Origin: Amoebophrya sp. A120
Lineage: Eukaryota > Protista > Dinoflagellata
Assembly: GCA_905178155.1 (NCBI GenBank)
Contig: CAJINV010000018.1
Span: 1,247,562 to 1,274,360 of the forward strand
Direction: 5' to 3'
DNA length: 26,799 bases
Below are positions 7,160-26,596 of the stretch, piece by piece (within the stretch, counting starts at the first letter, position 1; every line of letters begins with the position of its first letter). Position numbers and translations under genes: made by a program. The notes beneath the pieces are model-generated. The model did no database searches. It was not told where the DNA came from and saw only the letters and a list, made by a program, of their open reading frames with translations.

Positions 7160-8500
7160 TTAAGCGCTGTCGTCATCTCCTGACTCAGAAAAGGCTGGGG
7201 CTTCCGCCTTTTGTGTAATTTTCTGAAATCGCGAAACGATTGGGCCATGCTCCCCCCCCCCCGAGGCTTGGGCCATCTTATCTTTTAGGGTGGCGATTGG
7301 CCTCCGTCGATCGAGAAGGAGCGCACGCCCCGCCGTGGCTCCCTTTCCATATCCTATCCCATGCGGGAACGGCATGCCTGGCCCGCATGGTGCGCAAACA
7401 CTTACAGCGCGAATTCGCACCAATCGCGTCTCTTATGCGGACGGCTTTGGGCACCTGCGCCGATGAATTGGGTGCGCAAAAGCATAGACGCTGCGCCCTA
7501 TCGTCGCGCTTCATCGGGGCCCGACGCCGGTTCTTCCCGCGCGAGCCGGCGCTGGTTATGCAGTGGCCCGATGGCGCAAAAGGGCCGCGGCGTTGCCGGC
7601 AAGTTCGCCAAGCGACCGCGGGCGGACTTTCGCAGGCGGGGCGGGTAGCCGCGTCGAAAGGTCGCCCGCGCGGGCGCTCCCCGAGGCTGTGCGCTGCTTC
7701 CGCGCCGGATCGTCTCGGGCGAGCGCGATCGGGGCGGGTCCCGGCCGGCGCGGCGGCCCGCGGCGGTTCCCCGCCCCGCGGTTAGAGTTTCCGGAACCCC
7801 GATGCGAGCAAGTCTTTAGCCCCCCGGCGATGCGCCCAGAGCGTGACGCCCGCGGGCGGCTGTGCCTTGCGCCCCCCGCCCCCTCAACAGCACCGCCGCG
7901 CGCGATTGCGCGGGGCGGAGGCAGCTCGTCGGACGGCGTCGCGTTTGCCTCCCCTGGTGCCGCGCCTCTAGGGCGCGGGCCGGCTCGTTTCTTTCCCGCG
8001 CCTTTGCCCGCCGCCGGGCCCGACGAGGCGGCAAGGCCCGGCTTGGCAAGGCACAATCTCGCGCGATGAACTCGGCTACGTCGCACGACAAGGCTACGAG
8101 AGCCGCAGTTTTTCGCGCCGGTGTTCGTTTGCTAGATCGGTCGCGGCCCCGGACGGCCACGCCACCCTTCCCTGCGCCGCGGCAGCCCGAGTTCCTGACT
8201 TGTTTGTTCGTGTTCCTGCTTTGGGCCCAGCTTTGGACAAGCAAACGATCCGGCAATCGAGGGAAAGCCATTTCGTACGTGGCCCACCTATTTTCCAGAT
8301 CCACCTAGAATCGTCAGGTCCAAGGCATCAATGCAGCAGCGCTCGGCCGGATGCGAAATCCTATGGCGCGTCGCTTGTTCATCCTTCCTAGCGGCAGGTT
8401 GCGCTGCGCTAGGGTGAGTGGATAAACGTATGCAGAAAAGTAGTTGACACTCCGCTCGGTGTAGCAAGCCAGCCCACGACCGGGCTGCTACAGTGCTGTT
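7160..8500 (-). pseudogene. Possible highly degenerate copia RT-connection/RNase H relic, very GC-rich
   Basis: Minus-strand peptides in different frames are collinear with copia motifs: KTAALVALSCDVAEFIA (cf. KQxxVALSTAEAEYIA), LAGNAAAL (cf. xxDNxAAI), LCFCAPNSSAQVPKAV (cf. NxADxLTK). Similarity judged by eye and weak. Confidence 0.35.
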
Positions 8501-8631: not shown

Positions 8632-10896
8632 ATGACAAGTCCGACAACTTCCACCGCGGTGGAGTCCTCCTCCACCGCAACCGCAAAGGAGCGCCAAGGC
8701 GTGGTGTTTGACCGGTGGCCGTTTCGGCTGGACATCGCCTACGAGTACCAGTGCTGGATTCTCGTCGCGATGTCGGTGTTTTGCGCAACCATCTGCCTCC
8801 TTCCCTGCTTGTGCGGGGTGTTCCGGTCCAAAATTTCCAAGCGGTTCACGGTCTGGGTGTACTCCAGGCTGCACACCTTTTTCTGCGTCTATCAGAAGCA
8901 AAAATCCCCCCTCCCCACATCGAAACGAAATTTCTGATGCTGGATTTGCGTACACAAATCAGATTTGTCTTGCAGTAGAGGACTGCATGCCCATATCATG
9001 CCCATGCACAGAGGGACATCAGGAACGTCTAGGCCGTAGGAACAGCAGCATTACAAACCGCCTGCATAATGGGGCGGAGACTGTGGTGCTGCGTTCTTGC
9101 ATCACAGATGCGATTTGTGGTCACAAATCAGCACGAGAAATTTTTTGAGGCGTGCCTTATCGATATGGGGAGAGGGGATTTTTCCTTACGATAGCGTCGC
9201 CTTCTACTTCAACGTCACGGTGTTGTTCTTCACGGTGGGTCTGCTCCCAGATTGGACGATCAACGAGTACGTGGCGGTATGGGAGAGAAATTTTGCGTTT
9301 TCCTTGTCGCGCGTGGCACTTTTGCCGGTGATGCACTTTCGTACCCAAAGGAGCAGCTGTACTAGTGTGCACATCATTCTTTTTTCAACCGTCGCACAAA
9401 GTCTGACAGCAACCGGCTCCTCTACCGTCATGCAAAGCGTCGAGATCATTCCAGCGCGGCGTGTTGCATAACTTGCCTAAGTATTGTAACCCAAAGAGAA
9501 GGTTGCTGCAACGCGAAGGAAAAATTGGTTTTCATCCCAAGCTATACTCGATATGTTTCGACTTTCTGGATTGGATGTTGATCCACACCGTGAAGTTCCT
9601 GGTCTCTGCGCTGATCCTGCTGGGCCTGTTCATTCTCGTCAGGTCCAACTTCTTGAAGTTGAAAGTTTTCTTTGTGATGCGTAAGTGGTTTGCCAGAGTT
9701 CCTTGTCATGCGGAGCCCCAACAGTAAATGCGCGACAAATTATGCACCACCCAAAATCCTATCAGGTTCAAGGAGCGCATCGCCGCTGCCGCCGGTGTGG
9801 AGCACATGACCTTTTTCCGCCTCGGAAAACTGAACCTCTTCCACACCGCGCAGCTCCGCGGCATCGAGGTGATCATTTGGAAGGTGGAGGAGCTTCCCTC
9901 GGGCACGGGGCTGAAGCCCAACGACGTGTATTTGGAATGCCATGCCGGCCAGAACGAACCGACAAGGACGCGGGTGCACAACAACGCGGGAGCGTATCAA
10001 GAAGAAAAATCCCTCCTCCCCATATCAAAACGGAAATCTGTGTTGCAGATTTGCAGGCACAAATCAGCTTTGTTATGCTAGAAGGGGAAAGACCCGGACT
10101 GTAGTGCTGGGTGGCCTGGGGAAGCCTTGCATCTTCAGCATGGCAGGAAGCAATTGGAAGTGGGAAACAGCATGACAAATTGCCTGCAAACGAGGCCACA
10201 ACTGCGGCTCTTGGCCTCCTAGCATTACAAGTCGATTTGTGTACTCAGATACAGCATCACACATTTTGTTTTCGATATGGGGTGGGGGGATTTTTCCATT
10301 TGATAGAGCCGCGGCGGTGATCAAGGAAACGTTTCAGGTATACTGAAGATAACTACACTGCAACATATTGAAGATAACTATCACTATCCGTTTTATGCAT
10401 TGCAAATATGGATTTGTGATGCGAAATTTCAAGGACAACAAGTACAAGACTTGTATTGCATGAAGATGAGGATGATCATCCCCAGGTCAACATTGACGAG
10501 AACGACGTGGAGGAACGGTTCACACTTTTGGTAAAAGACCAAGAGCTATCCTGTGCAAAAGTATCGTACTCTTATTGCAGTCATGCGCTACAAATCTTTT
10601 TCTTAAGGCAAATCCGCATTACTTCTCATGCTGAGGAAATTTGTAATGCATTTATACGAGTACGATACTTTTGCAATGCATAAGAGCTCCTAGTTTCCTC
10701 CGTGCTGTGCAAGCTCCAGCTGAAAACCAAGGATGTTCTTGCGATTGAGGCGCAGACGGGCAAGGTGAGCGAAGATTTCGTCTACGACGCGAATGCGTTT
10801 TCGCAGCTCCAGCTGCAGCCGCGGGGAAAAATATGGCTGCGGGTAAACCCCTTGGAAGACGGGGAGCAACAGCCGTTGACGAGTGGACTGTGCTGA
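8632..10896 (+). CDS. Membrane protein (about 3 hydrophobic segments) with a C-terminal C2-like domain, ~320 aa
   Basis: Exons 8632-8889, 9199-9276, 9542-9642, 9766-9994, 10311-10337, 10486-10546, 10688-10896 (963 nt, one frame). 3 GT-AG introns and 3 introners. C2-like pattern: IEVIIWKVEELP..PNDVYLECHAGQNEPTRTRVHNNAG..VIKETFQVNI..FTLLVKDQELL..GKIWLRV. Confidence 0.75.
8890..9193. mobile_element. Introner 1 (family A)
   Basis: TIR TATCAGAAGCAAAAATCCCCCCTCCCCACATCGA / TCGATATGGGGAGAGGGGATTTTTCCTTACGATA. DR GCGTC at 8885-8889 and 9194-9198. Removal gives FFCVAFYF. Confidence 0.9.
9995..10305. mobile_element. Introner 2 (family A)
   Basis: Imperfect ~90-bp inverted repeat starting TATCAAGAAGAAAAATCCCTCCTCCCCATATC. 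DR GAGCG/GAGCC. Removal gives NNAGAAAVIKE. Confidence 0.9.
10547..10682. mobile_element. Introner 3 (family B)
   Basis: TATCCTGTGCAAAAGTATCGTACTC ... GAGTACGATACTTTTGCAATGCATA. DR AGAGC/AGAGC. Closely similar to 15651-15795. Confidence 0.92.
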
Positions 10897-11505
10897 TTCC
10901 ACGATTTCCGCTCACGACTGCTGAAATTTACCAAGACGGGTGAGGTGATTGTTAGCCCGCGAAGGTCGAAGACGATGCGTTAATGTGCAGCTGTTGAAGC
11001 AGGTGCCTAGAAATGCATCTTGGACGTTGTTGCTCGTGGCTCTTCTCTTCTTGGTTTTTGTCTTTATCGTCTTGTTCTTCACGACCCTCGTGCGGCTGCA
11101 AAGGTAGGCCGCCGACGGCGCTTACTAGGAAAAGCAACTGCAGGAATCAACTTCGACGGTTGGTTGTGACAGCACCCTTTCATTGCCAAGACTTGGCTTA
11201 TCCTAGAAGATCACCCAGAAAACGGACGAGATTAAGTTGTGCAAAATTTGTTTTCTCGATCTGCAATTTTTCTCATTTCCACACAGGTGTCTGGTTTGTT
11301 TCACAGCGACATTAGCTTTTAACACGTCGCATACGCGACGCGTGTCGTTGCTATATTCACTTGTAGTCGCGATTTCAGTTTCAACATTCGGCACGTCATT
11401 TTTCAGATCTGTCTGAACAATTTAGAATCTTCTTGCTGGTTCTTTTTTACTCATACTTGGTAAAATTTTCATTAATTTTGTGGACGTTACAAGTAGACTG
11501 ACATC

Positions 11506-14500
11506 ATGTCGCGTCATTTGCTCTTTGAAACAACGTCAACCGCTCTGGAGCGGTCGCGACCCTCGCTTCCGCGGCTGAGAATAGGCGGGAAAAACACCAG
11601 TGCCGGGGCACTACCGTCTGTCTCCCCTGCAAACAAGCCGCAGAAAGCGGGTCTACCGGCGCCCCTGCTGACCGGCTCTTACACCTTCGGTGGCAGCAGC
11701 AGCTCAACTGCACCTACTTGGGGAAGGCGAGGATTCTCAAGTCATTCTGTTGGGAAAGGGTCCTGCGTTGCAGCGGAGACGCCAAATTTCTTTTCTCCCC
11801 AAACCATGAAGCCGCGACCAAATACCGGGCTGTCTCATCTGCCACAAAGCAACCATGCGTGGCGAGGGCGGGCCGAGTGGGAGGAGCCAGCAAGTAGACA
11901 CAGAGCTTACAGCACCAAGAGCACAGCATCGCAAGGTTTGTTCGACAGGAGGCAAGGGCTGCTGCGGGGAGCGGCGAATTTTTGTGGTCCGAGAAGTAGA
12001 CTGGGAGCAGGACGAGGACTCTTCACGAAAAACAGCTTCTCCTCATCCCCAATACGAAATACATTAAGCTCCCACCAGCAGCACCACCCGCCCCACAACA
12101 ACCTTCTGCTGCCTCGAGTCCGCACCATGATCATGATCCGCGAGACAGAGAACGGAGAGAGCAAGGATCCAAAAAAGAAACAGAAAACCTCCACCATCCG
12201 CACGCTAAAGTCCGTGCTCAAGTACGCGTGGCCGTCGGGCGACCCGAAACTGCAGTCCCGCCTGGTCGGCAGCATGGCGTGCTTGGTGCTCGGGAAAGCC
12301 GCAACCATTCTGGCGCCGCTGGCACTCGGAGACTTGGTGAACAGCCTAACCGTATGCATTGCAAATATGTTTGGGTCTGGAAGGTTGGAACTTGTAATGC
12401 TATCTTTCCATACCTAGGAAATCTGTATTGCATAACCAACATAAGCCGCGGCCTCTTTTGTACATGCAAAAACGCAGTTTCTCATGCGGATTGCCTATGA
12501 GAAAGCGTTCTGGAAAGTTGTCATGCTGGGTTGCATTGGAAACTGTTTCTATCATCCACATTTTTGCATCAGAAGTTTCCAGACCCAGACATTTTTGCAC
12601 TTGATAGACCGCCGTGCGAGCGAGTCCGGGCGCGTCGGACGCAGCCGCCGAGCAGCTCGCGGAGACCTTCTCCCGGACGGCGTCCACCCCGGGTCTGGGC
12701 GATTTGCTCACCGCCACCACGGACAGCACCAACGTGCTCCTCGCCACCCCGGAGATGGTCCCGTTGCTCTGGCTGGCGTCGTACGGGCTCGCGCGGTTGG
12801 GGGCCAGCGGGTTCTCCGAGCTCCGGACCTACCTGTTCGCGCGGGTGGTGCAGAAAGGGTGCCGCAAGCAGGCGCTGAACGTCTTCAACCACCTGCACAC
12901 CCTCGATGTCGAGTACCTCCAGGCGCTGAAGTCCGGCGAGATCCAAGCCATCATGAATCGCGCGCTGAAGTCCATGCAGCAGGTTCTCACGACGCTGTTG
13001 TGGAACGTGGCGCCAACTTTACTGGAATTCGCTTTTGTGCTCGCGATCGTGTACAATCAGATGGGGTTGTACTCGAGCGGCATTGTGTTTGCGACCTTCT
13101 GCAGTTACTTCGGTTTCACGACGGTATCAAATGCAAAAATGTCTGGGTCTCCTCTGGAAGAATGCAAGTTTGTCATGCTTGTCTGGCATGACTCGAGAAT
13201 CTGTGTTGCATAGGCACGAAAGAGACCTCTTAACTGTCACGCGAAAAGGCAGCTTGCCATGCGGAATACGTAAGACATGGCAGCCACAAAATTTGTCATG
13301 TATAACTGCGTACTGCGGCGCGTCTATCATTCACTTTTAGCATTACAAGTTTCCAGACCCAGACATCTTTGCATTTCATAGACGGCCTACAGCAACAAGC
13401 GGCGGGAGTACATGAAAGAATCGAATAAACGCGACGACCGGCTCGCGGGGCAGCTGGTGGACTCGGTCCTGAATTGCGAAGCGGTGCGGCACTTTTCCGC
13501 GGCGAAGCGGGAGGCCAGGCGGTACGACCGACAGTTAGCGAAATACGAGGAGAGCCAGGTACTAGGGGAGTCAGTGCACGATCCTGTGAAAATGTCTTTA
13601 CTTGATCAATCTTCATGCATAACTCGCCACAGGAGTGTGGTTATCGTCATGCTGTTTATAATCTTGAGTTTCGAATACCAATCCAACCTCTACTTGATGT
13701 GGTACTGCAGTCCCCCCGGCATGGTGAGAAGTTCCAATTTAATCACTGTCAGGTGCAAGTCCTGCAATCCCTCGCCACTTTGAATATCAAATGCAAAAAT
13801 GTCTGGATCTGGAAACATGGAACTTGTAATGCTAGCCCTACATTCCTGTAAGATCTGTATTGCATGACCAACAAAGAAAACGCCCTGTTTTGTCACGCGC
13901 ATGGCAAAGTGTTCGGCAAACTTGTCATGCTTGGCTGCCTTGGGAAGTGTTTCAGTCGTGCACAGTTCAGCATCACAAGTTTCCAGACCCAGACATTTTT
14001 ACAGTTGATATGGAACTTTGGGCAGCAACTGGTGATCAACACCGGCCTCCTTTCCATCATGGCACTGGCCACCTTCATATGCATTGCAAATATCCCTGGA
14101 TGTCCGGAAAATATGGAATTTGTGATGCTAACTTTCGAGGATACAAAAACCTGTATTGCTTTATGAGCAGCAGAAGCTATGCAGACCTTTGCCAACCGGA
14201 CAGGGCTGCATTTCTCATGCCGGATAGGCATGAGCAAGCCTTCGCGAAGACGAAACCTGTGATGCTAGAGCATGCATCAGTGGCATCGCAGGTCTTGTAA
14301 AATCTGCATGACAGACTCCCCGAATTATCTTCCAGACGTCCAGGCAGATAATTTTCAGTTGATACTTCAACGTGCTCAACGGTTCCGTCCCCGTCGGGGA
14401 CGTCGTTGCGGTGAACACGCTGATGCTGCAGCTCGCGCAACCGTTAAACTTCCTCGGCGGCGCGTACCGAATTACTCTGCAGGGGGTGTTGGACTTGCAG

Positions 14501-15867
14501 CGGCTGGAGCAGTTTTTGACCGACCAAAAAGGGTCCTTGCCCGAGGGGGAAAAAGATTTTCAGTACGCTGGCGGGAAAATCGAATTTGAGAACATCGATT
14601 TCCGTGCGCTGAGGGATTTCAACTTGAAGATTCCCGCGGGAGCAAAAGTTGGGATCGTCGGGCCGTCCGGGAGCGGGAAATCCACCATTCTGAAGTTGTT
14701 GGCGCGGACCGCGAAGCCGGAGAAGGGCCGCACGTTGGTGGACGATCAAGATCTGATGGACGTCACGCAGGACAGTTACGCCAGCGAGATCGGCATCGTT
14801 CCCCAGGAGTCGATTCTGTTCAACGACACGCTGCGGTTCAACTTGGAGTACGCGGCGTTGGCGGACAGTAAAGCAGCGCTAGATGATGATGATGTTGACA
14901 CATCGACAAGTACGGACGTAAAACTCGCTCTCACCGACGAGGAAGCGGAGCAGCAAAGGGTCAAACTCCAGCAGCAAATGGAGAACGCCTGCAAGCTCGC
15001 GCAGGTCCACGACGTCATCGAGAAGTTTCCGGACCAGTACGAAACGGTCGTCGGCGAACGGGGGTCGAGGCTGTCCGGCGGGGAGCGCCAGCGGATCAGC
15101 ATTGCGCGCACGTTGCTCCGCGATCCAAAAATTTTGCTGTTCGACGAGGCCACGGCGTCTTTAGATTTGGAAACGGAGGACAAGCTGACGCGGGCGATCC
15201 ACGATTTGATCTCGAACAGCAGCAACAAAACCATGCTGATCGTCGCGCATCGGCTATCCACGGTGAAGCAGTGCGATTTTCTGCTTTACATCGACGGCGG
15301 GAAGGTCGCGGAAATGGGCAGTATCCTAATTAAAAACGTCCCCACACCAGAGTCACGATGGGAAATCTGCTAGACAAATCAGCCAGCTTTGGTTGTCTGG
15401 CATGACAAGTTTGCCCTCGTAGTGTAATGCTGTTTAGCTAGTTCACAAGCATTACAGACCTAGCATAGCATGCAGCTTATAGCATCACAAATTCCAAAAC
15501 ACGAATAGAAAATGCTTCTCATAGGGCTCCGCATGAGAAGCTTTTTTGGCATGCAGAATTGCATTACAGCTCTGGGGTGGGGAAGTTTTTACTCAGAATA
15601 GGCAGCCACGAGGAATTACTGAAAAAGGAAAACGGGTTGTATCGGAAGCTTATCCTGTGCAAAAGTATCGTACTCGTATTGCAATCATGCATTACAAATC
15701 CTGTTCTTAAGGCAAATTAGCATTACAAATTCAACTTCTCATGCGGAGGAAATTTGTAATGCATTTATACGAGTACGATGCTTTTGCAATTCATAAAGCT
15801 GTGGGCGACCTACCAGAGAGGGGTGGGGATAGGGAATAACAACAACGCCGGGAACAAGAAGAGTTGA
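11506..15867 (+). CDS. ATM1: Mitochondrial ABC half-transporter, ATM1/ABCB7 family, ~896 aa
   Basis: Exons 11506-12352, 12612-13124, 13386-13558, 13753-13784, 14016-14077, 14370-15321, 15606-15650, 15801-15867 (2691 nt). TMD motifs DSVLNCEAV, SLATLNFGQ, QPLNFLG; Walker A GPSGSGKST; signature LSGGERQR; Walker B LLFDEATASLD; AHRLST. Long Ser/Arg-rich N-terminal extension consistent with a targeting peptide. Confidence 0.9.
12353..12606. mobile_element. Introner 4 (family C)
   Basis: TATGCATTGCAAATATGTTTGGGTCTGGAA ... TTCCAGACCCAGACATTTTTGCACTTGATA. DR AACCG/GACCG. Confidence 0.9.
13125..13380. mobile_element. Introner 5 (family C)
   Basis: TATCAAATGCAAAAATGTCTGGGTCT ... AGACCCAGACATCTTTGCATTTCATA. 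DR GACGG/GACGG. Confidence 0.92.
13785..14010. mobile_element. Introner 6 (family C)
   Basis: TATCAAATGCAAAAATGTCTGGATCTGGAAAC ... GTTTCCAGACCCAGACATTTTTACAGTTGATA. DR TTGAA/TGGAA. Removal restores conserved SLATLNFGQ. Confidence 0.9.
14078..14364. mobile_element. Introner 7 (family C variant)
   Basis: TATGCATTGCAAATATCCCTGGATGTCCGGAA ... TTCCAGACGTCCAGGCAGATAATTTTCAGTTGATA. DR CTTCA/CTTCA. Confidence 0.88.
15322..15600. mobile_element. Introner 8 (family D)
   Basis: TATCCTAATTAAAAACGTCCCCACACCAGAG ... CTCTGGGGTGGGGAAGTTTTTACTCAGAATA. DR GGCAG/GGCAG. Removal gives EMGSHEELL. Confidence 0.92.
15651..15795. mobile_element. Introner 9 (family B)
   Basis: TATCCTGTGCAAAAGTATCGTACTCGTAT ... ATACGAGTACGATGCTTTTGCAATTCATA. 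DR AAGCT/AAGCT. Removal gives GLYRKLW. Confidence 0.92.
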
Positions 15868-16654
15868 TTGCAATCTGCTTTCTTATATGCAAAAGATTTT
15901 TCCATGCAGAGATGCGCAGAAACTTTTACTTTTGTGTTGCACCCGAAGAAACAAAGATGAAGCAAGAAACATACACAATCAAAAAACTCGTGTTGGCCCA
16001 ACATCCCGCTGCGCCACAACGCTTCTATTTCCGCAGCTGTAGCCCAGTACATGGAGCAACGGCGTGACATGAAACAGTGTTCTTGAATGCTAGCCGCACC
16101 TGCAACTACCTGAAAGAACAACGGCCACCTTGCCATGAAGCAAAAGTGATATCCAGTGTAAAAAATCGAGCACGCCAAAATAAGGATAAACGTGAGAACA
16201 ATTTTCCAAACGCAGATGCAAAAAATTATTTTACAAACACTTCGCCGCCAGAACACAGAGAGAAGACAGATAACATCTCTTCGTGTTATATCATCTTCAG
16301 TTGTAGTTCTCCTGGTTCTCTGACAGCGACGTTTCCTGATATGTAGTAATTACGATGACTTCTAAAACACGATGTTGTGAATATGAAGATAGCGACGTGC
16401 TAGACCCAGTGCAGCTACTATAGTAGATTTATTTCAAGACGGAAACGGGGTGTATTCTTGTTTTCGTTTATTCCTCCAAATATCTTCGTGCTCTGCCTAG
16501 ATCTAGACGAGAACAGCAGTCGAACTGTGTTTACTTACTAGAAGACGAGTGAGAACAACATCTTCAAGAAGCGTTGAATAGATTAAGAGCGACTTCTGAA
16601 CCACAGCGTCTTCACTTCTGTAAAGTCACTTCTTTATCAGTCTTGGGTAAGTAT

Positions 16655-19600
16655 ATGGGCAACATTTTTTCCTCTTCCCCAGTAAAAACCGAAAGCGACA
16701 CAACAACACCCAGTACTAAAGCGACGAGCACGAGTAACAAGCGAAGAGCCTCTCTTAGTACTAGCGAAGAGAGCCCATCTAGCAAGAAAACCAACATGCC
16801 GTCCGCAAAAAACTCGGTAAAGAAGCCCGCCGGGAAGCAGCTCACGGCCGCTGAGCTTGGCGAAAAGTATGTGGGGACGGGGAAGCCGGGAGGTATAGTT
16901 TAGTTGTTCATTGCGGGCGCCGGACGGCAAGAATCTTGAAGCGGTTTGATGTGTAAAAAATGCGTTTCTATAGTCGTGGCGGGGATTTAGAAGTTTAAGT
17001 TGTAAGATTAAGATTCCAAAATCAAAAAATACCACAAGGTGCCAAGGATCCCAACCCAGCGAGATGGGAAGACCACAAGCAGCATCCCTTCTCATCCGGG
17101 CTGTGCATAGCAACGTTACTGGACGGGAGCAAGTGCCAGAAGACCTGGGCGGAAGCGTACGTCCCCTACTGCAAGCCGTGCATGGAGAAGGGCGACCCGT
17201 CGGCAAAGGTAATAACGCACGAGCGGTTTGGCAAGTGCCTCGTCGCGCAAAGGGATCTGCTATCAAATGCAAATGTGTCTGTGTGGTCTGGAAATAGAGC
17301 GATATTCATATTTGTCATCTCGCGGTTTATTTCGCATGACCAGTAGGGTCTGGTACTTAATAGTATGCACGCCTACGAGCATGACAGGTTCTGCGAGGGC
17401 TGCTTCCCAATGCCTTGAGCTCGCCTTCTTTCCGCGCGAGCAAAAGCGGCTAGCTTGTGCTGTTCATGGAAGACAGATCTCACCGTCTTCCTGAGCTAGC
17501 ATGACGAATTTGCCGCTCTTTTCCAGACCCAGACAAATTTTGCACTGCATATCTGCCGAAGGGGTACAAAATGGCCTTGTTCGGAAAGGTTTACGAAGAG
17601 GAAAACATGCCGGAGGCGGACAAAGAGTGGGGCTTCGAGTGCTCGGACGGCACGTAAAATTTCTATTACGCCACGGCATTTTCCTACTTTTTTCTGCTTG
17701 ATGTTTCTTTGTCATGCAGCAGCGCTATATATAGAAGGACGCGGTAGTACCATCATCAGTACGCGGAAGTTTTTTTGTCACACTGCTCGTCATCTTCACG
17801 GCTGTAAGAACAAGAAAAAACTCGAAAAATAAAACCTCTCAGGTTCATCAACCCGGTGAAGTACAGCGGCAGCCTCCCCCAGTTCTGCCAGTGCCCCGGC
17901 CCCAACGAAAAAGTCACCGTCACCTTTGCTCAGCCGCACTTGCTAATGGAGGCAGTGTATCGATTGCAAAGCAATAGCGTTAGATTCGTACTCGGACATA
18001 ATTGCAAAAATGGTGCGTGACAGGTGTAATAGTATGTAGCTGTGGGCGATGCAGCTCGTCAGCACGAGAAATTTGAATTTCATTTATCAGCATTCATTCT
18101 GGATGAGAAATTTGTGTCGTTATGCGAAAGCGAATAGTACGATATTTTTGCAATGCATACCTTGGAGAGGCACGAAGACCGCGAGTATCCCTACGCGTCA
18201 ATGGTACTAATGGTGGTGCTCACTTGATGTTTCAAGAGTTGCATCATGTGTACACAAGAAAGACAAAATAGAGGTATACAGTTGTCATTCGTAGCAATCA
18301 TGTTCGTGGTCCATATCAAGATTTCCAATCCGAATTTACATCGAAACAGCTCTATCAAATGCAAATATGTCTGGGTCTGGAAACTTGTGTTGTTGATAGA
18401 TGCTTGCATTGCAAACTTGCTGCGTGTAGGTGTACGGCATAACAGCATCAGAAATTTCCTTCGGAGCCATTCGCGTTTAGCATTACAAACTGCCATCCAG
18501 CACGACAAAAAAACCGGCCAATGGTATTCATTCATTACAGATCTTGTTGTCCTTGAAGTCCTGCGTCACAAATCCAGACCCAGACATGCTTGCAATGCAT
18601 AAGCTCTTCCAAACGACGATGCCTGTGCCGAAGAATCACCAGCTGGTGATGATGTACGCGGAAATATCCTGTGTAAAAGCATACCACCCGACGCCATTAT
18701 TTGTCATGCAAATCGGCATGCCCAGCATTGAGTCGAATGTGAATGTGTCTGCTCATGCGCAGCCCCATGAGGAGCATATTATAATAATTCTACCTGGCAA
18801 GAACGGATTGCTTTTACTCAGGATAGGAAAACGAAAAAGCTACCGAGGTCTTCTTTTCCGAGCGCGGAATCAGCAGGTGTGACGTCTGGCAGAAGTATGG
18901 ATTGCAAATATCGACTTGGGTCGTTGCGGAGAATGCGAAAAAAACTTGTGATGCTCTCTGTAGAAGCTCACGTTCTTTTGCATGAGTAGAAGCAGTGCCG
19001 TCCCAGGAGTTTCTGCGACGCAGTGATGGGTGTGTTTTGTAATGCAAGATAGTAAGCATTGCAAATTCTTGCCAGAATCTGTGCTACAAGTAGTCCACGA
19101 CCACGCATTTTGTGCAGACCTTTCGGGGCATGGAAAACCTGCATCACAAGTATCTGCATTCTTTGAGAGGACCCAGACTGCGTATTTGCAATGCATAACA
19201 AGAATGCCCCGACGATATTGAAGAAGTGCGCGCCCGCGGACCCGAAGAATTTGAAGCTGACGGGCAAGCCCATCAGCAAGGCGGAGAAGGACAAGAAGGT
19301 GAAGGCGTGTATGGAAGCGTCAGGTTTGAAATCGACAAAGTTGAAATGATTTGTCATGCATAAAATGGATACCAGTTGGAAGCCCAATTTTCAAGCGGCA
19401 CATGACAAATTTTCGGAGCACCGAAAGCCAATTTGTCATGCTGTTTGGGCATAAAAGGCGTCTTTTGTCATGCTACTTTAGCAGCTCTATCACAGACCCC
19501 AAACAGGCTGACAATCTGCCTCGCTTGCCATCCCTGCAAGAGAGACAATTCACGCCTTGCATTTCATGCATGACAAATCCTTTCAACTTTGACGATTTCA

Positions 19601-19827
19601 ATCCTGACAGATCCATAGCGTGGGAGCTCCACGAAAAGCAGAAGATGAAGTCGGCAGCCGAAAAGGAGAACATGACGAAGCAGAAACTGAAAATGAGCAG
19701 CAACGCCACCGCGATGAGTAAGATGAAGGAGGTGAAGAAGAAGAACGGCAAGGACAAGTCCGGCAAGAGTACGGGTAGCATGAAGTCCACGGCGACCAGC
19801 TCGAAGGCTGCGATGAAGAAAAAGTAG
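16655..19827 (+). CDS. Divergent SET-domain-like protein with upstream Cys4 motif and Lys-rich tail, ~382 aa
   Basis: Exons 16655-16892, 17039-17260, 17557-17653, 17843-17957, 18165-18203, 18604-18664, 18831-18895, 19203-19309, 19623-19827 (1149 nt). SET-like segments: FGKCLVAQRDLPKGYKMALFG, FINPVKYSGSLPQFCQCPGPN, LFQTTMPVPKNHQLVMMY. The start codon and the 17957/18165 junction are uncertain. Confidence 0.7.
17261..17551. mobile_element. Introner 10 (family C)
   Basis: TATCAAATGCAAATGTGTCTGTGTGGTCTGGAAA ... TTTCCAGACCCAGACAAATTTTGCACTGCATA. DR TCTGC/TCTGC. Confidence 0.9.
17958..18159. mobile_element. Introner 11 (degenerate, family B-like)
   Basis: TATCGATTGCAAA ... AGTACGATATTTTTGCAATGCATA. 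DR eroded (CAGTG/CCTTG). Confidence 0.7.
18353..18601. mobile_element. Introner 12 (family C), inserted at an intron acceptor site
   Basis: TATCAAATGCAAATATGTCTGGGTCTGGA ... TCCAGACCCAGACATGCTTGCAATGCATA. DR AGCTC/AGCTC. Confidence 0.9.
18665..18825. mobile_element. Introner 13 (short, family D-like)
   Basis: TATCCTGTGTAAAAGCA ... TGCTTTTACTCAGGATA. DR GGAAA/GGAAA. Confidence 0.88.
18896..19197. mobile_element. Introner 14 (family C variant)
   Basis: TATGGATTGCAAATATCGACTTGGGTC ... GACCCAGACTGCGTATTTGCAATGCATA. DR AGAAG/ACAAG. Confidence 0.85.
19310..19617. mobile_element. Introner 15 (family E)
   Basis: ~58-bp imperfect TIR TATGGAAGCGTCAGGTTTGAAATCGACAAAGTTGAAATGATTTGTCATGCAT... DR GCGTG/GCGTG. 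Confidence 0.92.
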
Positions 19828-21128
19828 GATGAGAATCGATGCGATTAGATATCCAGGTGCAGGAGGAGATACAAGTACAGTCACCTGCTCGACGTCTCGT
19901 CCTCGTCAGGATGATCCGTTTACTTCACCAGTACACGTCTTTTTACCCTGCTGTTGTTTCATCGAATGTTGACACAAAGTCTGTTCTTTCGATGGCAACT
20001 ATGCTTTAAAGGTGTTTTTTACGACGCAACAATTGGGGAAGAAAAAACTTTGTTCTTGACTGCGCGCCGGGGAAGAAATGAATAAGTAGAATGCAGCACT
20101 ACAATTATTACCTTTACTGTGGATGAAACACTCTACGATCCAGGGTTGTTGTTCTCAAGGTACTGTAATACAAAAACACGACCTCCGTTTGGAAGATAAA
20201 CGAGAGGTGTCACAGCTTCCACTGGAACCTTTGTGATAATTTCGATTCCACCTACGATTGTAGAACTTCTACCCTCTGCTCGAAGATGGCACAGGGATGT
20301 CTAGATTTTTTTGGTTTTTACTTACGACCCCCTGGGAGTTGATTTCAATCTTTTATCTTTTGCAGCTACACGCTAAAAGAAAACCAAAACTTTGCTTTTG
20401 ACGCTGTGTTTTTTTTTTGCATGAAAAGCGACAACTACAAGGTAAGTACAATACTAATGAAAAGAATCGGAGTTTTCCTCTACCATCACTTGGACGCGTT
20501 TCAATCTGACACCGCGAGCGGGTTTGGATGAGTAAAAAATAGTGTTCGACTGTGTGTTGTGATGTCCTGCTTTTATCGCCACTTTTTTTTGATGGATAGC
20601 GCCTCGGATGTTTTTTATTTGATGGTTTTCACTCGTCACGACCTGGAGCGTACTTATATGGCTTGAACTGAAGATCGATAAAAATGTGTTTTTCTTTTTT
20701 GTGAAAGAGACGGGCTTTTTTTTTGTTTCGCGAGGATCATCCCTTTGTCGCATCCGCTCGTAGTTGTTGGTTTTCTTCTTTTTTCCTTGCTTTTAGTTTT
20801 TTCCACTATTCTGTTTTCGCTGCAGGAAGAGTTAAGTGGTTTTGCGACCAGGTCGTGGTCCCTTGACCACGTGACGTGTAAAAATAGCTTTCAAAACGAC
20901 GTATCAGTCGCACCTCGATCGCTGCTCTTGCTGCGTTTGCGCAAATGGTATTGATTCTTTGACACAGCTCATGCCGACTTTTCCTTCGCAAAAAATGTTA
21001 ATCTCCAATATCCCTAGCCTTGTAGAGGGCCCACGATGTAGTTCCGTGGAATTCTAGTTTGCTTTGAATCCTCGTAAGAAGCAAGAAGTTTTTACAGCGT
21101 GGGTTCCTGCTTCCTATAGCTCGATACC

Positions 21129-23161
21129 ATGTCCGCGAACCAGGGCGCGCGGTCGCGGCTCGGCGCGTCTCTCCGGGCCATGACCGGCGGGGGTCAGAAG
21201 GCCGCGTCGAGTTCAGCCGCGGGGAGTAGTGATCATGCCGCGAAGGAGGTCGAGATTGTGAAATTGGTGCCACCGCAGCGACTGGAAGATCTCTACCAGT
21301 ACGATGTAAAATTGTACGACGCAGGTATAAAAATGATGATATTTTGGTGTGACAGTGACTCAGGTCATCATCCTTGTCATGATGCAGTGGAGGAACCAAC
21401 TACAAGCATGACAAGCATTCTCTCTCAATGCCCTCCCGCATGACAAATTCCTTAGGTGACCGCAGCAAAGTTTTCGCGGCCAAAGAGCGGGCGACGGGCA
21501 AGGACGTGATCGTGAAAATCAGGAAGATATGCACGGCAAATATCTCTGGGTCTGGAAAGATTCACCTGATTTGTGTTGCTGAGTTTTGCATGAAAGAGCG
21601 ATGTTCTGCACGGTATAAACGCATCACAAATTTTCCGTCCGGTATTGCGAGCTCCACCGCGGTGTGCATGACAAACTGAGATTCACTGCATGACAAGAAG
21701 TTGGCCAATCGCATTGATGTATTACAGATCTCGTTGGGTTTTCAATTTTGCATCACAAATTCAGACCCAGACAGGTTTGTAATGCATAAAAGAAAGGTTT
21801 CTTTTCCGGCGGGGAACGGGTCTGGCGGTCGGTGCTGACGAGGATGATGAACATATGCAGTGCAAAAGTATCGTACTCGTATCAATACATCACAAATTTT
21901 ATTCTCAGCATGAAAAATAAAATTTGTAATGCTGATCTACCTCAAGAAAAAGATTTGTAATGCATGACTGCAATCAGTACGAGTGCGATGCTTTTGCACA
22001 GCATAGAACATTGAGGAGAACGAAAATGTTCTAGGGATTGACACCATTCTAGAGGACGACAAAGGTATTGTCATTAACATTAAGTCTTGAAAATGATATA
22101 ATACGAGTCTTTTCACATGCACTTTCGCGAAGCTTGCTTGCATGTCTTTGTCCGACCGATGCCGATGCTATTGGAACAAGTCGAGTGCTAGTATACTTGC
22201 ATCAAAGAAGGAGTGTCAGTTTTATGTTTATCATGCACACAACGCACTAAAATGATTATTCCCAGCCTACTACGTGATCATGCAGAAGTGCGGCGGCGGC
22301 GAGCTTTTCGACTTCCTCTTAAACGAGACAGACGTCCCGGAGCGGGAGTGTAAACGGATCATGCGGGAAATCCTGAAAGCGGTGGACCACCTGCACAGCA
22401 AGGGGTTGATCCACCGCGATATCAAACCGGAAAACGTTTTGTTTGAGAAGGCAAAGGAGGAGCAACAGTCCCCGGAAGAGCAGCGGAAGTTGAAATTGAT
22501 CGATTTTGACACCTGTGCATTGCAAAAGTATCGTATTCTAGGATGAATTGCATCACAAATTTTCTGAAGAAGAAATATGCAACTTGTCATGCTACTTCGG
22601 GTAGAAAGTCGAATTTGTCATGCAATTGCCCTACGAGTGCGATACTTTTGCAGTGGATAACCACTGCCAGGACTGGACACCGAAATCGCCGAAGGCGCAA
22701 AGAATCGTCGGGACACCGGGGTACATCGCGCCGGAGAGCTTTCGCGGGGACTACACGCCAAGTAGCGATCTGTGGTCCGTGGGCGTGATTCTGTACATTC
22801 TGATGACAGGGGACATGCCGTTTCCGGAAGACGTATCTTAGACGATTCTGTTGTGTGTTTTGTGATTGTGACGCATGATTGTCCACTCGTGCTGTGGTCC
22901 TGTTCGATGCAAATTTTCACTGCTTAAAAATAATGAACACAGGTGTTCGGCGACGATATTGCGGGCAACAATCAGGTCGGCGGCGCAAAAATGGAGCAGA
23001 TCTACAAGCGGCTGAAAACTTTCCAGATTGACTTCGACTGCCCGCCGTGGCCGGATTTCCCGCAGGCCCGGGACCTGTGCTCCCAGTTGCTGGCGTTTGA
23101 CCCGGGTGACCGGAGCCCGAGTGCCGCGGACGCACTGCAGCATCCGTGGCTGAAGGAATGA
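21129..23161 (+). CDS. Ser/Thr protein kinase, CAMK/CDPK-like catalytic domain, ~338 aa
   Basis: Exons 21129-21324, 21456-21527, 21794-21853, 22011-22064, 22266-22513, 22665-22832, 22943-23161 (1017 nt). Motifs [47 protein letters not shown]. Confidence 0.92.
21528..21788. mobile_element. Introner 16 (family C)
   Basis: TATGCACGGCAAATATCTCTGGGTCTG ... CAGACCCAGACAGGTTTGTAATGCATA. DR GAAGA/AAAGA. Confidence 0.88.
21854..22005. mobile_element. Introner 17 (family B, inverted relative to introners 3 and 9)
   Basis: TATGCAGTGCAAAAGTATCGTACTCGTA ... TACGAGTGCGATGCTTTTGCACAGCATA. DR GAACA/GAACA. Confidence 0.92.
22514..22659. mobile_element. Introner 18 (family B, degenerate ends)
   Basis: TGTGCATTGCAAAAGTATCGTATTC ... 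GAGTGCGATACTTTTGCAGTGGATA. Flanks ACACC/ACCAC. Removing 22514-22664 gives [14 protein letters not shown]. Confidence 0.8.
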
Positions 23162-24678
23162 TAACGAATGTTGTACGTCGTAAATATCAAGATTATGATC
23201 TGTTTCACCAGTGATAAAGCAGTAAGTAGTAGAGTGTAAATGTAAAATTCGAAGACAAGAACGATTTCAAGCATAGTATCTCGATGGACGAAAAAGACAA
23301 CGAGTACAACTGTTCCATGTTGTGCTATCACGAAGAAGAATGAAACTTAGGAATGTGCAAGATTAGGAAACAAAAATGATCTTGTTTGAGGAATAGCTTT
23401 GCTACCTCAAAGTGTAAAAAGAGAAAGTGAACACGTATTGTTATCATGGAGAAAGCAAACGCGCCGCGTCCAGCACCGACGGCCGTAGCGCTGCGGCGCT
23501 TACCAGATGCGATTGCGAGACCTGCAATCTGCTGTTCTTCCAACATTTTTCTTTCACCGAAAGCGGCTGAGTGGGGCAGAAGAAATCGAGGCGCGAGCAA
23601 GATCCTGCCGCGAAAAAGTAAAAGCTGCGCGCTGCGGGGCGAGGGTGCACTCGTGACACCCTCTTTATGGCTAGCGCGCGGAGTGCCTGAGGTTCTGGCG
23701 TAATTGAGTGTCAGCACGACCACGTGGCGATGCAAGCTGCCGCTAGAGCGACGGAGGGAAAACTGTAACTGTTACTGTGTGAGGGAGGGGCATCTCCTGA
23801 CATTTCATGCACAGCATCATGTCGATCCTCTAATGAACTTAGTGCTCTAGAAAAAACTACAAATAATGGCACACAAGCTTTAATTCAATATTCGACCGAG
23901 TTCTTCTTTGCTAAAACACATCAAAGACAGAAAATATAGTCCGTGTTGCGGAGGTCTCTCGCTGTTCTTGAAGCTGCAGCTGTTTCTGTCTTCTGCCGAC
24001 CCTGGGAGAGGAAGCTGCTAGCTTTTCCACCGACCAGCCTCTGTGCCTTTTTTTTTTGCAGCGAAGCTTGTACCCGGCGGTAGATCAGGAAGTTGAACTG
24101 AGACGGCTTGCTTTCGCGGAAACAGCAAGCAAATCACCGGAGTCCATCCAGATCTACGAGATACACAGGTGGCTTTCTCCCGAAGATTTTCTGTGTGGCC
24201 CTGCAGAAAAATTTTCAGGCCGGTTCGCGGTCAATAATTCGAGGCAAGCTTCGAACATTCCGGGTTTGGTTCTCTTTGCCACGTTGACCCACGAGGTGGA
24301 GAATAAAGAACGTGACCGCGCCCAGCTCGTACCATCCTAACAACTGGCGACGGTGGTGGTCATTATCATCTTCGCGTCTCGACGTGGACGACATTGTCAG
24401 CAGTGCGGGGAGGTGGGAAGAAAACCAGAGAACAACGGGAGAAAAACAGCCACAGCGGCTCCTCTTGCAAGACCGAATTATTTTTCGCTGGATCAACATT
24501 GTCATTGACGAGTGCTGACGTGGCGTAGGTAGCCCCGCGGCCGTACGGTGCAGAGCTGTAACCCACTCTGGTACAACTGTGCATGTGGATGTTCTTGTAA
24601 CACCACCAGGACCACCAGCTCTTCAACGCAAGATAGAAGGTATAAACCGCGAGCTGGTTCTTGTGCACGACGAACACC

Positions 24679-26596
24679 ATGGACGATTTGGGCGCAGAGC
24701 AGCACAGCGACAAGCCGTATGACGAGGCAATCGAGGTGTCCGGCGACGACGCCAGCACGCCAACGTCATCGCCACGACAAAAACCACTCTACGATGTGCC
24801 GTCGCACGCATCACCCAGTCCGAAGGGGAAGCCGGAGGTAAAAAAGAGGGATGCTGCGTACTTGACAACCTGGATTTTGGATCGACTTCTATGCGGTGCA
24901 GCAGCATGTGTGAATTAAGGCATGGCAGGAATGTTTGAACTTAACAAAAAAAAATACTTTTTATCCCCTCACAGCCCCTCGAAACCGCCGTCAAGGCGTC
25001 ATCCCCGGGAACGAAATCAACACCGAAATCGAGCCCTGGGAAGTCAAGTCCCGGGAAGTCAGCAAGTCCGAAACCGGCAAAGAGTCCCGGGAAGGTATGT
25101 ATTGGGACGTTTGCATGACAAGTTTTTTGTGTGAAAATTTTTGTTTCTCATGCTGATTTGCCCACTGCGATTGCTTTTGTCATGCCATTCTGGATAATGA
25201 AACAGGAATCTTCTTCTTCCGATGCCACTAGTACGAGTTCTAGCGATGACGACGAAGGAATGATTATCCTGAGTAAAAACGTACCCACACCATAGTTGTC
25301 ATGCAAATCTGCATGCTGAGAATGTTTCTCATGCGGAGCCCCATGAGAAGCATTTTCTAGTCGTGTTTTGCAATTTGTCATGCTCCAATCAGCATGATAT
25401 GCTAGATCTGTGATGCTGCTGAGCTAGCTCAAACAGCACTACACTACGAATCCAAATTTGTCATGCAAAACAGCCAAAACTTGTGGATTTGTCTAGCCGA
25501 TTCCCCATCTTGACTATGGTGTGGGTACGTTTTTACTCAGGATAATGATAGCCGGGCAGTATAACCCCGCAGACTACGCAAATTTGAAGGTAAGGATTAC
25601 GATTAACTCCATCTTTGTCAGTACGCATGACATGTTTTTGTTTCTCATGCAGCACTCCTTACTCGTTCTCACCTCAGAGAAGATGAAAAAAGAACAACAA
25701 AAACAGGTCTCCCCCGAAGTCTCCGAGCTGTTTCAGTACATCACGAGGTATAAGCCCCACGCCATAGAATTAGATACGAAACTGAAAGCCTTCATACCCG
25801 ACTTCATACCGGCGATAGGCGAAGTGGACGCGATGATAAAAATTCCGCGCCCCGACAACAAGCCGGACGGGCTCGGGCTCACGCGGGTGGACGAGCCGTG
25901 CTTGAACCCCGCGGACCCGGCGGTTTTGGAGCTGCAACTGCGGTCCATATCGAAACACCAGAACCTAACCCCGATAGAAGTCCGGAGTGTCCGAACCGAC
26001 GCCGAGATAAAACAGTGGGTGAACAGAATAGGAGACCTGCACCGGATATGCATTACAAATATGTCTGGCTCTGGAAGATTGCCAGATTTGTCATGCTTGT
26101 CTGACATGACTCGGACCTCTGTCATGCGTAGGTGCAAAAAGATCGTTTTGTCTGTCAGGCAAAAGCGCAGTCTGCGATGCGGACTACGCTACACATAGCA
26201 CCTCAAAAACTTGTCATGCTTGGCCACGTATGACAGAGCGCCCAGTATTCCCTGGTTTGCATCACAAGTGTCCAGACCCAGACATATTTGCATTTGATAT
26301 CGGAGCAAGCCGGCGACGGCGGTAGTAACTTCGTCACAACATGAAGGAAGATGCATCAGGCGATAGATCTGAGGGTTTTTCGTTTCTGAATTTTTGTGAT
26401 GCGCAAAACAGGATACTCATACTTTACCTTCTCATAACATCAACCACAGGTGCAATACAGCAAGAAGATGCCGGATATAGAGACGCTGATGCAGGTGTGG
26501 CCTGCAGAAATGGAAAGTTATCTGGAGCAGAACTTACCATCATTGCAACTGGCAGCGTTGGACCACAAATCGCTGAGCTTGAAGGACTACATCAAG
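24679..26596 (+). CDS. IFT46: Intraflagellar transport protein 46 (3' end lies beyond the window)
   Basis: Exons 24679-24837, 24975-25094, 25206-25264, 25550-25589, 25707-26046, 26305-26321, 26450-26596. Recognisable IFT46 core: YNPADYANLKVSPEVSELFQYITRYKP..LKAFIPDFIPAIGEVDAMIKIPRPD..LGLTRVDEP..MPDIETLMQVWP. Confidence 0.92.
25265..25544. mobile_element. Introner 19 (family D, inverted relative to introner 8)
   Basis: Perfect 32-bp TIR TATCCTGAGTAAAAACGTACCCACACCATAGT. DR ATGAT/ATGAT. Confidence 0.95.
26047..26299. mobile_element. Introner 20 (family C)
   Basis: TATGCATTACAAATATGTCTGGCTCTGGA ... TCCAGACCCAGACATATTTGCATTTGATA. DR CCGGA/TCGGA. Removal gives DLHRSKPATA. Confidence 0.92.

What the first reader, a model, noticed from the sequence alone, without database searches (positions are those of the whole stretch)
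9990..26304. Mismatches between the two direct-repeat copies fall on silent codon positions
Seen: of the six DR pairs with one mismatch, five differ at a third codon position and four are synonymous whichever copy is kept. These are insert 2 GCG/GCC Ala, insert 4 CTA/CTG Leu, insert 16 AGG/AGA Arg and insert 20 CAC/CAT His. The exceptions are insert 14 CAG/CAC (Gln/His) and insert 6 TTG/TGG (Leu/Trp). A freely drifting intronic copy should ignore codon position (crude chance of at least 5 of 6 third positions is 13/729). Inference: the 'discarded' DR copy is constrained. Either both copies can end up in the mRNA (variable junction or microhomology-type joining), or DR identity is itself read by the excision machinery, like ciliate IES pointers. 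The sample is small.
Basis: partly seen in the sequence, partly recalled or inferred. Interest (0 to 1): 0.8.

Follow-up and report, generated by a model that had tools for sequence, protein, structure and literature searches.

The report
Repeat mismatches pinpoint introner splice cut
In a marine parasite, transposon-derived introns sit between 5-base repeats, and every RNA junction we could test fits one fixed cut, so the excess of silent differences between the two repeat copies is likely mostly ordinary selection on the bases that stay in the message.

Summary
The window is Amoebophrya sp. A120; the inserts are its published introner elements. The six one-mismatch pairs are as described, but two 2-mismatch pairs and a missed 3-mismatch insert bring the tally to 7 of 13 third positions. 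In 283 framed elements of a close relative, 45 of 85 mismatches are third-position and 41 of 85 silent. RNA contigs show one base at each of 7 mismatched pairs, and all 14 junctions seen allow only one common cut, after repeat base 4. Discarded copies encode Trp or His at near-invariant residues, and a 2/5-identical repeat is still spliced. Variable junctions and pointer read-out are not supported; a partial slow-down of the discarded copy is not excluded. The useful by-product is the cut register N|TAT...ATA NNNN, which the original paper's figure legend calls unknown.

The parts
8885..9198 (+). Insert 1: introner 8890-9193 with perfect 5-nt repeats GCGTC
   Evidence: RNA joint, cut 0 to +5
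9273..9551 (+).
   Evidence: RNA joint 9274>9549, cut +2 to +4; ends read from sequence; codons
9990..10310 (+). Insert 2: repeats GAGCG/GAGCC; mRNA keeps downstream C at repeat base 5 (GCC Ala)
   Evidence: joint 9989>10306, cut 0 to +4
10542..10687 (+). Insert 3: perfect repeats AGAGC
12348..12611 (+). Insert 4: repeats AACCG/GACCG (CTA/CTG Leu); kept base not observed
   Evidence: its joint was not among the rows shown
13120..13385 (+). Insert 5: perfect repeats GACGG
13780..14015 (+). Insert 6: repeats TTGAA/TGGAA; upstream TTG Leu is the conserved residue, downstream TGG would be Trp; element folds as a long hairpin ending at TAT/ATA
   Evidence: Leu in 111 of 111 aligned homologues; fold z = -3.9; no RNA joint shown
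14073..14369 (+). Insert 7: perfect repeats CTTCA
15317..15605 (+). Insert 8: perfect repeats GGCAG
15646..15800 (+). Insert 9: perfect repeats AAGCT
17256..17556 (+). Insert 10: perfect repeats TCTGC
17953..18164 (+). Insert 11: repeats CAGTG/CCTTG, two mismatches (silent third position; first position Val/Leu); mRNA keeps both upstream bases
   Evidence: joint 17955>18163, cut +3 to +5
18348..18606 (+). Insert 12: perfect repeats AGCTC at the acceptor of a GT-AG intron (18204-18603)
18660..18830 (+). Insert 13: perfect repeats GGAAA
18891..19202 (+). Insert 14: repeats AGAAG/ACAAG; mRNA keeps upstream G (CAG Gln)
   Evidence: joint 18892>19200, cut +2 to +5
19305..19622 (+). Insert 15: perfect repeats GCGTG
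21523..21793 (+). Insert 16: repeats GAAGA/AAAGA; mRNA keeps upstream G (AGG Arg)
   Evidence: joint 21523>21790 in 4 of 4 runs
21849..22010 (+). Insert 17: perfect repeats GAACA
22509..22664 (+). Insert 18: repeats ACACC/ACCAC, left end TGT; mRNA keeps upstream bases 3 and 4 (ACC Thr; the discarded copy gives His); the only pair that forces the cut to +4 or later
   Evidence: joint 22512>22664 in 4 of 4 runs; Thr in 110, Ser in 7, His in 0 of 119 homologues
25260..25549 (+). Insert 19: perfect repeats ATGAT, 30/30 inverted repeat
26042..26304 (+). Insert 20: repeats CCGGA/TCGGA; mRNA keeps upstream C (CAC His)
   Evidence: joint 26042>26301 in 4 of 4 runs
8632..10896 (+). Host gene A, unnamed, with hydrophobic stretches (inserts 1, 21, 2, 3)
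   Evidence: open frame after splicing; joints; no Pfam hit for the exon tested
12130..15867 (+). Host gene B, ABC half-transporter (inserts 4-9); the annotated protein starts further upstream
   Evidence: contained in P0001, Amoebophrya sp. A120; Pfam ABC_tran and ABC_membrane
16655..19827 (+). Host gene C, unnamed (inserts 10-15)
   Evidence: open frame; joints; no Pfam hit for the exon tested
21129..23161 (+). Host gene D, protein kinase (inserts 16-18)
   Evidence: identical to P0121; Pfam Pkinase
24679..26596 (+). Host gene E, IFT46 (inserts 19, 20); continues beyond this exon
   Evidence: Pfam IFT46_B_C, E 2e-40; joints

Best explanation
These are Amoebophrya A120 introner elements whose 5-nt direct repeats are likely target-site duplications, and all RNA junctions seen fit one cut after repeat base 4, so the silent-site excess likely comes mostly from the kept copy drifting at silent codon positions while the discarded copy changes at any position. 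Shown: the repeat is strictly 5 nt; mRNA contigs take repeat bases 1-4 from the upstream copy and base 5 from the downstream copy; the removed piece is N + TAT...ATA + NNNN. Inferred: the hairpin formed by the inverted repeats sets the register. The TAT end supplies U+2 and A+3 of a GUA-like donor, while G+1 and the terminal AG are not required, probably for a relaxed spliceosome. Repeat identity is a relic of insertion and decays with age.
For: Repeat length: 335 of 477 elements perfect at 5 nt, at most 11 at 3, 4, 6 or 7 nt. Junctions: the ranges allowed by 14 of 14 joints intersect only at +4; for the 7 mismatched pairs, random cuts would allow a common cut with P = 0.07 and +4 with P = 0.03; the three pairs laid agree in 4 of 4 runs. 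Codon statistics: 283 framed elements, 85 mismatches, 22/18/45 by codon position, rate ratio 2.03 (1.34-3.06), 44 of 85 non-silent. The one-free-copy model predicts 42% silent and 47% third-position at omega 0.1, kappa 2 (p = 0.27, 0.28); the both-coding model predicts 80% (p < 1e-4). A discarded-copy rate of zero is rejected for omega up to 0.2 on all mismatches. Discarded copies would give Trp for a Leu seen in 111 of 111 homologues and His for Thr/Ser in 117 of 119. Mismatch per site falls from 14% in elements with no close relative to about 5% in those with one. At +4 the 5' ends read N-TA, as 12 of 13 canonical window donors read GTA. In the paper's Table S4 all nine commonest A120 site pairs start N-T and A25 pairs start TT. 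Only 120 of 400 stranded elements start GT and 42 end AG at +4.
Against: Single-mismatch elements alone are 57% silent (35 of 61), and a fully free discarded copy is rejected there at p = 0.001-0.03. No discarded copy makes a stop, against about 2 expected; non-silent changes are slightly mild (P = 0.05). Omega was not measured; at 0.3 or more the both-coding model also fits. The lower bound +4 rests on insert 18 alone, which has an atypical TGT end; without it the range is +3 to +4. RNA evidence is contigs of one sample, flagged 'RNA?' by the tool, and contigs drop rare variants. One annotated A120 protein has Val where a +4 cut of locus L044 gives Ala, which is either a strain difference or a cut at +6. 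The paper calls the splice sites variable relative to the hairpin. The large sample is a close relative, not shown to be A120.
Confidence: 0.68

Rival explanations
1. The cut is fixed at +4, but the discarded bases (intron +1 and -4 to -1) are partly constrained by the splicing machinery, so they change at perhaps a quarter to a half of the neutral rate.
For: Fitted relative rate 0.5 (0.22-1.32) on all and 0.24 (0.08-0.66) on single mismatches at omega 0.1; 0 stops against about 2; repeat position 1 has the fewest mismatches, 9 of 283.
Against: The interval on all mismatches includes 1 for omega up to 0.1. Keeping only single mismatches removes adjacent double changes (18 of 28 doubles are adjacent), which the discarded copy tolerates best. 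No base preference held up: G at intron +1 was 8 against 1 in the strict set but 10 against 5 in the wider set. A 2/5-identical repeat is spliced.
Confidence: 0.2
2. The junction slides within the repeat, so both copies reach mRNA often enough for protein-level selection to act on both.
For: Fits the codon statistics if omega is 0.3-0.5; the Val/Ala case at L044; 'variable' splice sites in the paper's Fig. 3 legend; no stop in discarded copies.
Against: One base at each of 7 mismatched pairs and no alternative letter listed there; Trp and His at near-invariant residues; positions 4-5 beside the cut are 19 of 33 non-silent, the opposite of what sliding by one base predicts.
Confidence: 0.08
3. 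Repeat identity is read by an excision machine like the pointers of ciliate internal eliminated sequences, possibly at the DNA level.
For: 70% of repeats are perfect (335 of 477) although element interiors are mostly 80-95% alike to their nearest sampled relative.
Against: Inserts with 2 and 3 of 5 mismatches are removed cleanly. The contigs that skip inserts also skip GT-AG introns and one ends in an A run, so removal is at the RNA level (inference). An identity check would not care about codon position and cannot explain the silent bias.
Confidence: 0.03

Closest known systems
Amoebophrya A120 introner elements (Farhat et al. 2021, PMC7789003)
   Same: Same strain by protein identity; inverted repeats starting TAT with an A run; short direct repeats; about 250 nt; hairpin; non-canonical ends.
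   Different: The paper gives repeats of 3-5 nt and, in the Fig. 3 legend, variable splice sites and an unknown border. Here the repeat is strictly 5 nt and mismatched pairs place the cut at one register. Its text on four nucleotides upstream and Table S4 (N-T starts) point the same way; its figures were not visible to me.
Polarella and Symbiodinium introner-like elements (Roy et al., bioRxiv 10.1101/2020.10.14.339549), such as class 12 with a 5-nt duplication
   Same: DNA-transposon introns with target-site duplication; a donor can span the last duplicated base and the first element base.
   Different: Those recruit G-starting donors and AG acceptors from the duplication and allow several frames; here neither G+1 nor AG is required and one frame fits all data.
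Euglenid nonconventional introns (as reviewed in PMC11282704)
   Same: Non-canonical junctions, terminal inverted repeats at a fixed offset from the ends, duplication-like repeats.
   Different: Pairing there is at +4 to +6 with -8 to -6; here it starts at +2 and ends at -5, with no purine/pyrimidine junction rule seen.
Ciliate IES pointers (recalled, no call)
   Same: Short direct repeats at both ends, one copy left after removal.
   Different: IESs are cut from DNA; these inserts are removed from RNA and tolerate 3 of 5 mismatches.

Membership tests
Amoebophrya A120 introner elements | Host is Amoebrophrya-type strain A120 | tested here: met
   Two window exons are 100% identical to proteins named Amoebophrya sp. 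A120
Amoebophrya A120 introner elements | Terminal inverted repeat starting TAT, then an A run | tested here: met
   insert 18 starts TGT
Amoebophrya A120 introner elements | Direct repeat of 3-5 nt across the exon-intron border | tested here: met
   5 nt in 335 of 477 exactly
Amoebophrya A120 introner elements | Removed from mRNA with non-canonical ends | tested here: met
   14 joints skip an insert plus one repeat copy; 11 of 400 elements are GT-AG at +4
Amoebophrya A120 introner elements | Repeated in families across the genome | tested here: met
   Window inserts match elements in other loci at 75-98%
Amoebophrya A120 introner elements | Hairpin joining the two ends | tested here: met
   Predicted for insert 6 only, z = -3.9; not shown in cells
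Non-autonomous TIR DNA transposon (MITE) | A cognate transposase that makes 5-nt duplications | not tested
   None sought; the paper reports none in A120
Spliceosomal intron | Lariat with branch point, spliceosome dependence | not testable with these tools
   Only the U+2/A+3 likeness to canonical donors was seen
Ciliate IES with pointers | Excision from DNA | tested here: inconclusive
   No DNA run was laid; the joined forms come with GT-AG introns removed too, which points to RNA
Ciliate IES with pointers | Pointer identity needed for removal | tested here: not met
   Repeats with 2 or 3 of 5 mismatches are removed
Euglenid nonconventional intron | Pairing at +4 to +6 with -8 to -6 | tested here: not met
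   The stem starts at +2 and ends at -5 under the +4 cut

The most novel reading that the evidence does not exclude
Amoebophrya A120 splices tens of thousands of introners with a structural ruler: it cuts one base before and four bases after the hairpin, reads only U+2/A+3 supplied by the element, and ignores both terminal dinucleotides. Any 5-bp-duplicating insertion is then excised scarlessly at any site, in a cell where U1 snRNA was not found.
Probability: 0.5. Interest if true: 0.68.

Novelty: already known. Interest (0 to 1): 0.38.

Why it matters
The elements are published, and the silent-site pattern is mostly what ordinary selection on the kept copy gives, so the finding as written is not a new mechanism. 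Its value is as a tool. Perfect repeats hide the splice junction, and the original paper's legend left the border unknown; mismatched repeats expose it. They give one register (N|TAT...ATA NNNN) that lines the element's TA up with the +2/+3 bases of canonical donors. That turns an open question, how a lineage without a detected U1 snRNA removes most of its introns, into direct tests on existing RNA reads and lariats.

Tried and rejected
No whole genome is held and the records behind the loci are not held for extension, so the tabulation covers 549 kb in 124 loci, not a genome. Raw RNA runs X9-X11 do not cover the exons; they hold only related element ends, so base counts per read could not be made. 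Joints of inserts 4-9 were not among the rows shown. Selection for G at intron +1: seen in the strict set (8 against 1), lost in the wider set (10 against 5; Fisher p = 0.37); rejected as unproven. Extension of the hairpin into the repeats: 59 against 51 pairs, no signal. Gain of AG acceptors: no excess of A or G at downstream positions 3-4. Polarising locus mismatches by codon scores was too weak. A homologue search with an L044 exon found nothing; a second found only a partial A120 protein. No Rfam family reached its gathering score in 5400-26799. No earlier scan findings were returned. Rows dropped before the codon count: of 458 non-window elements, 24 had 3 or more mismatches (some mis-paired), 1 was lost in in-silico excision and 150 had no confident frame.
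Full report
WHAT THE WINDOW IS. Two exons match proteins named Amoebophrya sp. A120 at 100% identity. Scripts found 20 inserts that start TAT, end ATA and are flanked by 5-nt direct repeats. They match the introner elements of Farhat et al. 2021 (PMC7789003): inverted repeats that start TAT in A120, direct repeats of 3-5 nt, more than 60% non-canonical introns, U1 snRNA not detected. With inserts and GT-AG introns removed, five genes read open: an ABC half-transporter, a protein kinase, IFT46 and two unnamed genes. The spliced kinase equals the annotated protein and the transporter product lies within it.

THE OBSERVATION. Two more pairs differ at two bases (inserts 11 and 18), and an RNA joint revealed a 21st, degenerate insert at 9278-9546 whose repeats differ at three. 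Over all 13 mismatches the codon positions are 4/2/7 and 6 are silent; P(>=7 of 13) is 0.10 under 1/3.

A LARGER SAMPLE. A pattern scan returned 124 loci (549 kb) of one assembly with the same element families. One locus differs from an annotated A120 protein at one or two residues in about 95, so it is a close relative. Elements were detected from their inverted repeats alone, with no repeat criterion: 477 including 19 from the window, of which 335 are perfect, 90 have one mismatch, 28 two and 24 three or more; no other repeat length fits. Frames were called with coding models that did not score the repeat codons; 13 of 13 window calls with margin 8 or more were right. Of 458 non-window elements 283 were framed. 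Their 85 mismatches fall 22/18/45 on codon positions 1/2/3 (rates 4.6, 4.2 and 8.9%), and 41 are silent. The excess over 1/3 is real (p = 0.0008); the rate ratio is 2.03 (1.34-3.06).

THE RIGHT NULL. A mismatch appears when either copy mutates. If the discarded base is free and the kept base is coding, third positions collect changes from both copies and the others mostly from one. On the real codon contexts this predicts 42% silent and 47% third-position at omega 0.1 and kappa 2 (p = 0.27, 0.28). Both copies coding predicts 80% silent (p < 1e-4) and fits only at omega 0.3 or more; omega was not measured. A likelihood fit of the discarded copy's rate, relative to silent sites, gives 0.5 (0.22-1.32) on all mismatches. 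On single-mismatch elements it gives 0.24 (0.08-0.66), and a rate of 1 is rejected at p about 0.01. That subset excludes adjacent double changes (18 of 28 doubles). No discarded base makes a stop, against about 2 expected. Some constraint on the discarded copy is thus possible but not shown.

WHICH COPY REACHES THE mRNA. Contigs of runs X3-X6 (one sample; 'RNA?' is the tool's guess, but they skip GT-AG introns too) join across the inserts. Insert 2 keeps downstream base 5. Inserts 11, 14, 16, 18 and 20 keep upstream bases (positions 2-3, 2, 1, 3-4 and 1). Insert 21 keeps upstream 1-2 and downstream 5. Inserts 16, 18 and 20 agree in 4 of 4 runs; the others were seen in X3 only. The cut ranges of all 14 joints intersect only at +4; insert 18 alone sets the lower bound, otherwise +3 to +4. 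Random cuts would allow a common cut with P = 0.07, so this is suggestive in itself. Homologues agree: the discarded copy of insert 6 gives Trp for a Leu present in 111 of 111 homologues, and that of insert 18 gives His where 117 of 119 have Thr or Ser. Sliding by one base should make positions 4-5 the most silent; they are 19 of 33 non-silent. Contigs drop rare variants, and the raw runs X9-X11 do not cover these exons, so minority junctions are not excluded. One case may point the other way: protein P0242 has Val where a +4 cut of L044 gives Ala, either a strain difference or a cut at +6.

HOW IT LIKELY WORKS. Inferred: a transposase-type insertion duplicates 5 bp. In the transcript the inverted repeats pair (predicted for insert 6, z = -3.9), and the cut falls one base before and four bases after the stem, which restores the target exactly. 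The intron then starts N-U-A, in register with canonical window donors, 12 of 13 of which read GTA. Only 120 of 400 stranded elements start GT, 42 end AG and 11 have both, so the terminal dinucleotides seem not to be needed. In the paper's Table S4 the nine commonest A120 pairs all start N-T and the A25 pairs start TT, matching A25's TTA ends; this fits the same register, though aligner conventions could contribute. Whether the spliceosome does the cutting is untested. Repeat mismatch rises from about 5% per site in elements with close relatives to 14% in those without, as expected of a decaying relic, and a 2/5-identical repeat is still removed, so identity is not required.

WHAT IS IN PRINT. 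PMC7789003: I read the abstract, sections 10, 11, 12, 16, 25, 32 and 35, passages of supplementary file 1 and its part 3. Its figures (Fig. 3, S19-S23) are images I could not see and may show the register. PMC11282704, PMC12130899, PMC9860276 and bioRxiv 10.1101/2020.10.14.339549: passages only; the preprint's supplements were not seen. Five searches listed no paper that uses repeat mismatches to place the Amoebophrya junction; subscription journals are largely outside the library. The ciliate comparison is recalled.

VERDICT. Known elements; a real but mostly ordinary silent-site excess; no support for variable junctions or pointer read-out; a residual hint of slower change in the discarded copy; and a candidate fixed splice register worth a genome-wide test.

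Noticed in passing
window 239-5374 (+): Open 1711-codon frame with an RVT_2 reverse-transcriptase hit (E 6.5e-10), a Copia-like retrotransposon polyprotein. PMC12130899 reports A120 introners with Copia/Gypsy homology and terminal inverted repeats; a link to the 5-nt duplications was not tested.
   Followed up: partly
window 18204-18606: Insert 12 duplicated the acceptor AG|CTC of a canonical intron; the mRNA joint uses the downstream copy's AG, so the element is removed inside or with a GT-AG intron.
   Followed up: partly
window and loci L001-L124: Double mismatches are adjacent in 18 of 28 repeats (p = 0.008), and G in the left copy with C in the right outnumbers the reverse 21 to 9 (p = 0.04, uncorrected). 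This may reflect error-prone filling of the insertion gap.
   Followed up: partly
L014:4460-4800 and L049:1985-2340: Elements whose repeat copy is separated from the inverted repeat by three extra bases; the frame would be kept either way.
   Followed up: no
window 13981-14010, 25438-25544, 26271-26304: Raw RNA runs X9-X11 carry ends of the same element families with other flanks but none of this window's exons: shared families in another strain or species, present in RNA.
   Followed up: no
L044:3330-3600 (-): Annotated A120 protein P0242 has Val right behind a perfect repeat where the locus gives Ala; strain difference or a cut at +6.
   Followed up: partly
L044:1011-8941 (-): Nineteen introners within 8 kb, exons often 45-100 nt.
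   Followed up: no
window 7500-8100: A stretch of 73-76% G+C upstream of gene A; no Rfam family.
   Followed up: partly
framed elements in loci: At the +4 cut the intron phases are 133/61/89 for phase 0/1/2, biased although no fixed splice bases seem to be recruited from the exon.
   Followed up: no
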